Origin: the human T2T-CHM13v2.0 reference genome, Homo sapiens
Length of the DNA: 64,000 bases
NCBI RefSeq assembly: GCF_009914755.1
Contig: NC_060935.1
Direction: 5' to 3' (one strand)
Part shown: positions 2,024-2,566 of the stretch, piece after piece
Layout of the letters: the number at the start of each line of letters is the position of its first letter
How positions within the stretch are numbered: the stretch's first letter is position 1
Notes under the pieces: generated by a model
Told to the model about the DNA's origin: nothing
Databases searched by the model: none
Seen by the model: the letters and a program-made list of their open reading frames with translations, nothing else
Made by a program: the position numbers and the translations under genes

Positions 2024-2256
2024 TCTTGCTGCTGCTCACTCTTTGGGTCTGCACTACCTTTATGAGCTATAACACTCACTGAGAGGGTCTGCAGCTTCAT
2101 TCCTGAAGTCAGTGAGACCACGAACCCACTGGAAGGAAGAAACTCCAGACATATCTGAAAATCGGAAGGAACAAACTCCAGACACACCATCTTTAAGAGC
2201 TGTAACACTCACCGTGAGGGTCTGCGGCTTCATTCTTGAAGTCAGTGAGACCAAGA

Positions 2257-2419
2257 ACCAGTGTTTATACAAATGATAGAGCTGCTAAATGTAAAATTCC
2301 AGCCCTGGACCTTCTTATTAAGCATTACAGACATCTTTGGTTTTTTCCAGATTTCGGTTTGCTTGTATTTGTCTGGAAGTCACTCAACAGTATTGAATTT
2401 CGTTAACGTAGAGAAGAAA
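2257..2419 (+). pseudogene. PRKDC: PRKDC-derived scrambled-exon (circRNA-type) retrocopy fragment inside 5' LTR U5
   Basis: 2257-2322 reads [22 protein letters not shown]; 2323-2397 reads (A)LQTSLVFS[frameshift][16 protein letters not shown]; 2398-2419 reads FR*RREE. These match recalled DNA-PKcs N-terminal segments, but the downstream segment comes first. Confidence 0.9.
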
Positions 2420-2566
2420 CTCCAGACACATATTAACATCTGAAGGAACAAACTCCAGACACACCATCTTTAAGAGCTGTAACACTCACCACAAGCGTGC
2501 GTGGCTTCATTCTTGAAGTCAGCGAGACCAAGAACCCACCAGAAGGAATAAATTCTGGACACATTT

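What the first reader, a model, noticed from the sequence alone, without database searches (positions are those of the whole stretch)
2136..2536. Template-switch signature: microhomologies and a 124-bp direct repeat flank the captured RNA
Seen: the block GAAGAAACTCCAGAC...GAGACCAAGAACC occurs at 2136-2259 and 2413-2536 (124 nt each), bracketing the insert. The insert is in the sense orientation, ends ~150 nt upstream of the PBS, and has no poly-A or L1-type TSD. Junction overlaps are GAAGAAA (2413-2419; in LTR and in recalled PRKDC REEI codons) and ACC (2257-2259). Inference: during minus-strand strong-stop synthesis RT jumped onto a co-packaged circle, read across the back-splice junction, then returned to viral RNA, possibly re-copying 124 nt. 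This would be a poly-A-independent route for retroposing circRNAs.
Basis: partly seen in the sequence, partly recalled or inferred. Interest (0 to 1): 0.75.

Follow-up and report, generated by a model that had tools for sequence, protein, structure and literature searches.

The report
Retrovirus-captured circular PRKDC RNA fragment
An ancient ERV9 provirus carries, at the same spot in both of its end repeats, a 153-base copy of a back-spliced PRKDC RNA joined to viral sequence through short shared bases, which is the mark of a viral reverse transcriptase hopping onto a circular RNA; the pseudogene itself is probably the one reported in 2016.

Summary
The 124-nt block occurs at 2136-2259 and 2413-2536 (89.5% identical) around a 153-nt insert. 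The insert is spliced PRKDC RNA in permuted order: end of exon 4, then all of exon 2, then the start of exon 3. The exon 4 to exon 2 join sits exactly on canonical splice sites, and a 91-nt intron is missing. Both overlaps are present in the PRKDC gene: ACC on the left and GAAGAAA on the right.

The 3' LTR (7251-8136) has the same insert, junctions and repeat. The event therefore predates integration and lies in U5, the part copied once from next to the tRNA-Arg primer site into both LTRs.

Of 55 distinct related LTRs, 52 have one block, so the duplication is not the family norm. Two things weaken it as a re-copying signature. An insert-free LTR on chr4 has the same two blocks in tandem 9 nt apart. 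The two blocks here already differed at 5-6 positions at integration.

Template switching onto a back-spliced RNA is well supported. Whether that event made the repeat is open.

Dong et al. 2016 report a human circPRKDC-derived pseudogene, and Tan et al. 2016 describe the general mechanism. This is a clear junction-level example, not a new kind.

The parts
1655..2563 (+). 5' LTR of an ERV9/LTR12-type provirus (U3 repeats, R, U5 with insert)
   Evidence: It aligns to 7251-8144 at 87.6% over 920 columns. U3 has 41-nt and 24-nt CCAAT repeats at 1710-1906. 42 related places were found in the genome.
2052..2126 (+). First U5 repeat element (unit A)
   Evidence: 88% identical to 2185-2259 over 75 nt. 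It is present once in the relatives.
2136..2259 (+). 124-nt block B, the upstream copy of the flanking repeat
   Evidence: The homologous block is single in 54 of 57 related loci.
2257..2259 (+). Left junction overlap ACC, shared by the LTR block end and PRKDC exon 4
   Evidence: P(overlap of 3 or more nt) = 0.056.
2260..2322 (+). Last 63 nt of PRKDC exon 4 (residues 113-133)
   Evidence: 65 of 66 identical to chr8 over window 2257-2322, which includes the ACC overlap. The exon ends ...ATTAAG|gtaatt. It matches DNA-PKcs residues 113-134.
2323..2397 (+). Whole PRKDC exon 2 (77 nt in the gene, 75 here after a 2-nt loss), joined head-on to the end of exon 4: a back-splice junction at 2322|2323
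   Evidence: In the gene the exon reads cag|CATTACAG...GTATTGAA|gtaagt. 75 of 79 alignment columns are identical. The 3' LTR copy keeps the 2 nt.
2398..2412 (+). First 15 nt of PRKDC exon 3 (22 nt with the overlap), joined to exon 2 with the 91-nt intron removed
2413..2419 (+). Right junction overlap GAAGAAA, shared by PRKDC exon 3 and the start of the LTR block
   Evidence: P(overlap of 7 or more nt) = 0.0008.
2413..2536 (+). 124-nt block C, the downstream copy of the flanking repeat
   Evidence: It carries states shared with the 3' LTR copy but not with block B.
2567..2584 (+). Primer-binding site, complementary to the 3' end of tRNA-Arg with one CpG-type mismatch
   Evidence: Variants of the site among relatives are listed. 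Four exact genomic matches to the complement all fall in ARAGORN tRNA-Arg genes.
4505..4894 (+). Gag p30 remnant
   Evidence: Pfam PF02093, E = 7.6e-15.
6541..7083 (+). Env transmembrane remnant, in two frames
   Evidence: Pfam PF00429, E = 2.1e-29 and 1.4e-9.
7251..8136 (+). 3' LTR with the same structure: block B 7708-7831, insert 7832-7985, block C 7986-8109

Best explanation
While an ERV9 reverse transcriptase was making minus-strand strong-stop DNA, it switched templates twice. That synthesis starts at the tRNA-Arg primer and runs leftwards through U5.

The first switch left the viral RNA at the start of the 124-nt block. The nascent DNA paired with GAAGAAA in exon 3 of a co-packaged, back-spliced PRKDC RNA. 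That RNA was most likely a 245-nt circle of exons 2-3-4.

The enzyme then copied 153 nt: back through exon 2, across the back-splice junction, and into exon 4. At ACC it returned to viral RNA and finished U5 and R.

Both LTRs of a new provirus are built from that one U5 copy, so the insert ended up in both.

Shown here:
- the permuted, spliced origin of the insert
- the exact splice-site junctions
- both overlaps
- the presence of the insert in both LTRs
- its sense orientation

Inferred:
- packaging of the RNA in the particle
- that the RNA was a circle
- the order of the jumps

The flanking 124-nt repeat has two possible origins. The return jump may have landed 124 nt downstream of the exit on the second packaged genome. 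Or the parent LTR may already have had two tandem blocks, with the insert replacing the 9-nt linker between them. I lean slightly to the first.
For: - Source of the insert. It matches only 4 places in the genome: the two LTRs here and two PRKDC exons on chr8. It matches DNA-PKcs residues 113-134 and then 49-84, E = 3e-13.
- Splicing. The exon ends are canonical. They read ...ATTAAG|gt for exon 4, ag|CATTACAG for exon 2, and ...TTGAA|gtaagt with a 91-nt intron before ag|TTTCGT for exon 3. All three joins in the insert fall exactly on these boundaries.
- Overlaps. 3 nt and 7 nt at the junctions, with P = 0.056 and P = 0.0008 by simulation.
- Both LTRs. The 3' LTR has the same insert and junctions. 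The two insert copies share 1 difference from PRKDC; 5 are private to the 5' copy and 11 to the 3' copy. They therefore diverged mostly after integration.
- Provirus context. tRNA-Arg primer site and gag and env remnants on the same strand.
- Repeat number. The block is single in 54 of 57 related loci.
- Published mechanism. Tan et al. 2016 describe microsimilarity-dependent template switching by LTR elements onto packaged cellular RNA (abstract and passages).
Against: No experiment or read data here show that this circle exists or is packaged.

Blocks B and C were not identical at integration. 5 positions are shared by both C copies against both B copies, with a sixth at position 29. The internal branch by the four-point rule is 4.5 changes in 124 nt. 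A single re-copying of one template in the final cycle does not predict that.

An insert-free LTR (L070, chr4) has two terminal-type blocks in tandem with a 9-nt linker. The repeat may therefore be older than the capture.

No ancestor or sister copy with the insert exists in this genome. None has the block C signature either.

The 3-nt overlap is weak on its own.
Confidence: 0.8

Rival explanations
1. The template-switch capture is the same, but the 124-nt repeat is older than it. The parent LTR already had two tandem blocks, as L070 has. The enzyme left at the start of the downstream block and came back only 9 nt further on, at the end of the upstream block. The insert therefore replaced the linker, and nothing was re-copied.
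For: - L070 has block + CACCAGAGG + block without any insert, and its two blocks are 120 of 124 identical.
- U5 unit number varies in the family (L020; LTR12 review PMC11853044, passages).
- B and C differed at 5-6 positions at integration.
- 124 + 9 = 133 nt, which is the native spacing of the U5 units.
- A return next to the exit point needs no second template.
Against: - Only 1 of 12 fetched pattern hits has two terminal-type blocks, and none of the 55 distinct close relatives does.
- L070 lacks the states that tell B from C.
- No insert-free copy carries the block C signature.
Confidence: 0.35
2. The template was not a circle. It was a linear RNA with exon 4 joined to exon 2, made by trans-splicing, by exon repetition, or from a since-lost tandem duplication in PRKDC. 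Capture was by the same template switching.
For: The sequence cannot tell a circle from a linear RNA that carries the same junction. Dong et al. 2016 (whole main text read) note that non-colinear junctions can have other origins.
Against: - Both sides of the join are exact canonical splice boundaries.
- Only exons 2-4 are represented.
- The T2T genome has no tandem copy of these exons; the insert hits chr8 once per exon.
- From general knowledge, back-splicing is by far the commonest source of such joins.
Confidence: 0.07
3. A DNA-level or L1-driven insertion of a PRKDC cDNA went into one LTR of an integrated provirus. The 124-nt repeat would be an unusually long target-site duplication. The insertion was later copied to the other LTR by gene conversion, or carried along when that provirus was re-mobilised.
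For: - The insert is flanked by a direct duplication.
- The block starts with a purine run (GAAGAAA).
- B5 and B3 differ at only 2 of 110 non-CpG sites, against roughly 6-10% in the other segments. This hints at LTR-LTR conversion in the region.
Against: - There is no poly-A.
- From general knowledge, 124 nt is far beyond usual L1 duplications.
- The insert lies in U5, in the sense orientation, with identical junctions in both LTRs. The retroviral route explains that without an extra step.
- The two insert copies differ at 12 of 151 aligned sites, so any conversion would have to be very old.
Confidence: 0.05

Closest known systems
circRNA-derived pseudogenes (Dong et al. 2016, Cell Res, PMC4897178; whole main text read, supplements not seen)
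   Same: The insert has a non-colinear exon-exon junction matching a back-splice, contains only circle exons, and has no poly-A. The paper names a human circPRKDC-derived pseudogene present in chimp and gorilla but not rhesus. It also notes LTR sequence around the mouse circRFWD2 copies.
   Different: The main text gives no locus, no junction anatomy and no mechanism ('remains mysterious'). Added here: the position in U5 of both LTRs of an ERV9 provirus, the two overlaps, and the flanking repeat.
LTR-mediated retroposition by microsimilarity-dependent template switching (Tan et al. 2016, Genome Res, PMC5131818; abstract and passages read)
   Same: A partial copy of a cellular RNA lies inside an LTR element. 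There are short shared bases at both fusion points, no poly-A, no L1 hallmarks, and both LTRs are kept.
   Different: Their cases are linear mRNAs that replace part of the element's interior. Here the template carries a back-splice, the site is U5 inside the LTR, and viral sequence is duplicated (or only 9 nt lost) rather than deleted.
[quoted passage not shown]
   Same: Copy-choice jumps between co-packaged RNAs at short homologies.
   Different: Those are experimental systems with exogenous viruses. This is a fixed germline example in an ape ERV9.

Membership tests
circRNA-derived pseudogene (Dong et al. 2016 criteria) | Non-colinear exon-exon junction identical to a back-splice junction | tested here: met
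   The exon 4 donor end is joined to the exon 2 acceptor start at 2322|2323, exactly at canonical splice sites.
circRNA-derived pseudogene (Dong et al. 2016 criteria) | Sequence confined to the exons of the circle | tested here: met
   Only exons 2, 3 and 4 are represented; the flanks are LTR.
circRNA-derived pseudogene (Dong et al. 2016 criteria) | The parental circRNA is expressed | not testable with these tools
   No RNA data were available. The paper's pipeline starts from expressed circles, but I could not confirm that its PRKDC circle is exons 2-4 (closed).
LTR-mediated retroposition (Tan et al. 2016) | Retrocopy flanked on both sides by one LTR element, with both LTRs present | tested here: met
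LTR-mediated retroposition (Tan et al. 2016) | Microsimilarity at the fusion points beyond chance | tested here: met
   7 nt (P = 0.0008) and 3 nt (P = 0.056).
LTR-mediated retroposition (Tan et al. 2016) | No poly-A and no L1-type target-site duplication | tested here: met
   The flanking repeat is 124 nt of LTR.
LTR-mediated retroposition (Tan et al. 2016) | Part of the element is replaced by the retrocopy | tested here: not met
   Viral sequence is duplicated, or at most a 9-nt linker is lost.
ERV9 / LTR12 | U3 tandem repeats of about 41 nt with CCAAT motifs, and U5 repeat elements of about 72 nt | tested here: met
   41-nt x2 and 24-nt x5.7 CCAAT repeats at 1710-1906. 75-nt U5 units. Features as described in PMC11853044.
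ERV9 / LTR12 | tRNA-Arg primer-binding site and gammaretrovirus-type gag and env | tested here: met
   That ERV9 uses tRNA-Arg is recalled, not read.
ERV9 / LTR12 | Subfamily LTR12F | not tested
   No repeat library was on hand. Without the insert and the extra block the LTR is about 630 nt; the review gives about 500 nt for LTR12F.

The most novel reading that the evidence does not exclude
This provirus is a three-template recombinant made in one particle. Strong-stop synthesis began on one ERV9 genome, hopped onto a packaged circular PRKDC RNA, and returned onto the second, slightly different co-packaged genome.

That would explain three things at once: the 124-nt duplication, the differences between the two blocks, and why an already copied template stretch was still available.

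It would be natural proof that retroviral particles package and reverse-transcribe circRNAs. It would also point to endogenous retroviruses as the general makers of circRNA-derived pseudogenes, including the mouse circRFWD2 family.
Probability: 0.3. Interest if true: 0.7.

Novelty: new member of a known kind. Interest (0 to 1): 0.55.

Why it matters
How circular RNAs, which have no poly-A tail, get back into genomes was left open when circRNA-derived pseudogenes were described. Later reviews in the searched library still cite only that report.

This locus preserves the junctions well enough to read the mechanism. The capture lies inside U5 of a retrovirus, is inherited by both LTRs, and has short shared bases at both joins. 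That makes the question testable with single-cycle retroviral vectors and with comparative ape genomes.

It also shows that LTR-LTR comparison can date and order such events. It does not change what is known about retroviral recombination.

Tried and rejected
- Native repeat number. I tested whether the repeat is simply normal for this LTR type. It is not the norm (52 of 55 distinct relatives have one block). It is not unique either (L070), so the point stays open.

- Second parental lineage for block C. The 22-nt C signature occurs only in this provirus. A 23-nt stretch that block C3 shares with L056 occurs at 3 places: C3 itself, L056 and L085. L085 does not share the other C states.

- Tree of 60 blocks (L045 and L055 left out as duplicates of L011 and L010). 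It pairs C3 with L056 (98/90). It does not reject all four blocks being one group (p-AU 0.216). So it tells neither way.

- L1-type insertion was rejected: no poly-A, and both LTRs carry the insert.

- Integration of the provirus into an older PRKDC pseudogene was rejected, because the insert sits at the same internal place in both LTRs.

- Unavailable sources. The supplement look-up for Dong et al. was closed and earlier findings were not open. I could not confirm that their circPRKDC pseudogene is this locus.

- Literature. Six searches found no paper linking PRKDC to LTR12/ERV9 or describing the junctions.

Full report
**The observation**

The window is human chr11. The stretch 1655-2563 is the 5' LTR of an ERV9/LTR12-type provirus.
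- It has 41-nt and 24-nt CCAAT repeats in U3 and repeated 75-nt units in U5.
- A primer-binding site follows at 2567-2584. Its complement matches four tRNA-Arg genes exactly, with the one CpG-type difference restored as in relatives.
- Gag p30 (4505-4894) and Env TM (6541-7083) remnants lie downstream on the same strand.
- A second LTR lies at 7251-8136.

The two copies are 89.5% identical. A weaker unit lies at 2003-2126. Between B and C lie 153 nt that are not LTR.

**What the insert is**

A search of the whole genome with the 153 nt found 4 places: the two LTRs of this provirus and two exons of a gene on chr8. Translated, the insert matches DNA-PKcs (PRKDC) residues 113-134 and then residues 49-84, E = 3e-13.

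On the gene (locus L003) the pieces are:

| Piece | Gene exon | Window | Exon ends in the gene |
|---|---|---|---|
| Last 63 nt | 75-nt exon | 2260-2322 | ...ATTAAG\|gtaatt |
| Whole exon | 77-nt exon | 2323-2397 | cag\|CATTACAG...GTATTGAA\|gtaagt |
| First 15 nt | 93-nt exon | 2398-2412 | acag\|TTTCGT... |

I call these exons 4, 2 and 3. The numbering is inferred from residue numbers 52-133; exon 1 was not looked at.

The 91-nt intron between exons 2 and 3 is gone. Exon 4 is joined to exon 2 exactly donor end to acceptor start. The template was therefore a spliced RNA with a back-splice junction, most simply a 245-nt circle of exons 2-3-4. About two thirds of it was copied.

**The junctions**

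At the left junction, the gene reads ...GTACC|AGTG and the LTR block ends ...GAACC. They share ACC. At the right junction, the gene reads ...GAGAAGAAA|TCC and the LTR block begins GAAGAAACTCC. They share GAAGAAA.

In 200000 random pairings of positions in this R-U5 with positions in the circle, overlaps of 3 or more nt occur with P = 0.056. Overlaps of 7 or more nt occur with P = 0.0008.

**Both LTRs**

The 3' LTR has the same insert (7832-7985), the same two junctions and the same flanking blocks (B3 7708-7831, C3 7986-8109).

The LTRs differ at 83 of 884 aligned sites. K2P distance is 0.10 overall and 0.079 without CpG sites. Against PRKDC, the two insert copies share 1 difference. 5 are private to the 5' copy and 11 to the 3' copy, and 1 site differs in all three. 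So the insert was there at integration and has decayed separately since.

From established retroviral replication, U5 is copied once per cycle, from the 5' end of the genomic RNA, during minus-strand strong-stop synthesis. That copy seeds both LTRs. An RNA-to-RNA template switch in that step predicts what is seen: sense orientation, a position between R and the primer site, and identity in both LTRs.

The flanks give a possible 4-nt target duplication, ATAG/CTAG, with 3 of 4 matching. This is weak evidence.

**Is the 124-nt repeat linked to the insertion?**

Two genome searches, with 1990-2571 and with 2413-2760, scored 40 candidates each out of 4445 and 3403. I kept 57 loci.
- 54 have exactly one full-length block.
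- L020 has two.
- L026 has two because it holds two LTRs.
- L038 has none because it is truncated.
- L045 and L055 are the same LTRs as L011 and L010. That leaves 55 distinct loci, 52 of them with one block.

The usual structure is therefore unit A, one block, then a 27-nt tail.

U5 unit number does vary in this family, however.
- A review says so (PMC11853044, passages).
- L020 has three units with a hybrid middle one.
- A genome-wide pattern for a terminal-type unit followed 9 nt later by a block start found 13 places. Among the 12 fetched, L070 (chr4) is an insert-free LTR with two full blocks in tandem, separated by CACCAGAGG. Its two blocks are 120 of 124 identical to each other.
- By my reading of the HSP table, the other 11 are ordinary two-unit LTRs, truncated copies, or more distant three-unit LTRs.

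**The state of B and C at integration**

Pairwise differences in 124 nt:

| Pair | Differences |
|---|---|
| B5-B3 | 8 |
| C5-C3 | 13 |
| B5-C5 | 13 |
| B3-C5 | 10 |
| B5-C3 | 20 |
| B3-C3 | 17 |

By the four-point rule this gives an internal branch of 4.5 changes.

Five positions (22, 79, 81, 84, 90) have one state in both B copies and another in both C copies. Position 29 also separates them. Three of these (79, 81, 90) are CpG transitions. Positions 22 and 84 are transversions that are rare or absent in relatives: T at 22 in 0 of 58 blocks and C at 84 in 3 of 58. B and C were therefore already different when this provirus integrated.

That does not fit a simple re-copying of one template in the last cycle. 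It fits any of three alternatives:
- a return jump onto the second, different co-packaged genome;
- a capture in an earlier generation whose provirus is lost;
- a parent with two older blocks.

None could be singled out.
- The C signature is found nowhere else.
- No third copy of the insert exists.
- Block C3 pairs with an unlinked LTR, L056, in a tree (98/90). Holding the four blocks together is not rejected (p-AU 0.216).
- B5 and B3 differ at only 2 of 110 non-CpG sites, against roughly 6-10% in the other segments. This hints at conversion between the LTRs and further blurs the record.

**Comparison with what is known**

Dong et al. 2016 (whole main text read) defined circRNA-derived pseudogenes by the non-colinear junction. 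They name a human circPRKDC-derived pseudogene present in chimp and gorilla but not rhesus. They note LTR enrichment, and MMERVK10C-int sequence, around the mouse circRFWD2 copies, and they state that the mechanism remains mysterious. Their locus is in supplements I could not open. Since the exon 4 to exon 2 join occurs only here in this genome, it is probably the same locus.

Tan et al. 2016 (abstract and passages) describe LTR-mediated retroposition by microsimilarity-dependent template switching. They report three human cases. A review (PMC5408686, passages) already links the mouse circRNA copies to that route.

Six further searches found no description of this locus's junctions or of PRKDC in LTR12. 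A 2025 review still cites only Dong et al..

**Verdict**

The 124-nt repeat is unusual for the family, but it is not proven to be a product of the event.

The object is a new, well-preserved member of two known kinds, and the pseudogene itself has probably been listed before.

An LTR divergence of about 0.08-0.10 suggests an age in the low tens of millions of years. This is my estimate from commonly used neutral rates. It is compatible with the reported absence of the circPRKDC pseudogene from rhesus (Dong et al. 2016), if theirs is this locus.

Noticed in passing
L070 (G000 chr4:175715176-175718208), LTR around locus positions 990-1665 on the strand that carries the pattern (the reverse of the stored locus): An insert-free solo LTR of the same type with two terminal-type 124-nt blocks in tandem, separated by CACCAGAGG. 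The blocks are 120 of 124 identical, which indicates an independent and younger duplication of the same unit.
   Followed up: partly
window 2136-2259 versus 7708-7831: Block B differs between the two LTRs at only 2 of 110 non-CpG sites, while the other LTR segments differ at roughly 6-10%. This suggests LTR-LTR gene conversion or constraint over this stretch.
   Followed up: no
window 7986-8109 versus L056 (chr2:183999476-184002818) and L085 (chr12:44457332-44460354): Block C of the 3' LTR shares an exact 23-nt stretch (containing GACAGAAC) with two unlinked LTRs, a state its 5' partner lacks. In a tree it pairs with L056 at 98/90. The cause could be ectopic conversion or shared parentage.
   Followed up: partly
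loci L041, L046, L047, L049, L051, L054, L056, L057, L059 (after the LTR end): A second primer-site type (…ACCCAGATGGGAC) occurs in 9 of the 29 related 5' LTRs, beside the …ACCACGAAGGGAC type seen here. Which tRNA it fits was not checked.
   Followed up: no
window 3442-3599 and 3607-3759: Two neighbouring tandem duplications in the leader/gag region of the provirus: period 85 nt and 80 nt, about 1.9 copies each, 83-87% matches.
   Followed up: no
window 2565-7250: The internal region is only about 4.7 kb. It has Gag p30 and Env TM remnants, but none of the 13 plus-strand frames scanned gave a Pfam pol match (9 other listed frames were not scanned). The provirus may therefore have lost most of pol.
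   Followed up: partly
window 1264-2463: The RefSeq enhancer feature given with the finding covers the 5' LTR, block B and the whole PRKDC insert. Whether the insert contributes to that activity is unknown.
   Followed up: no
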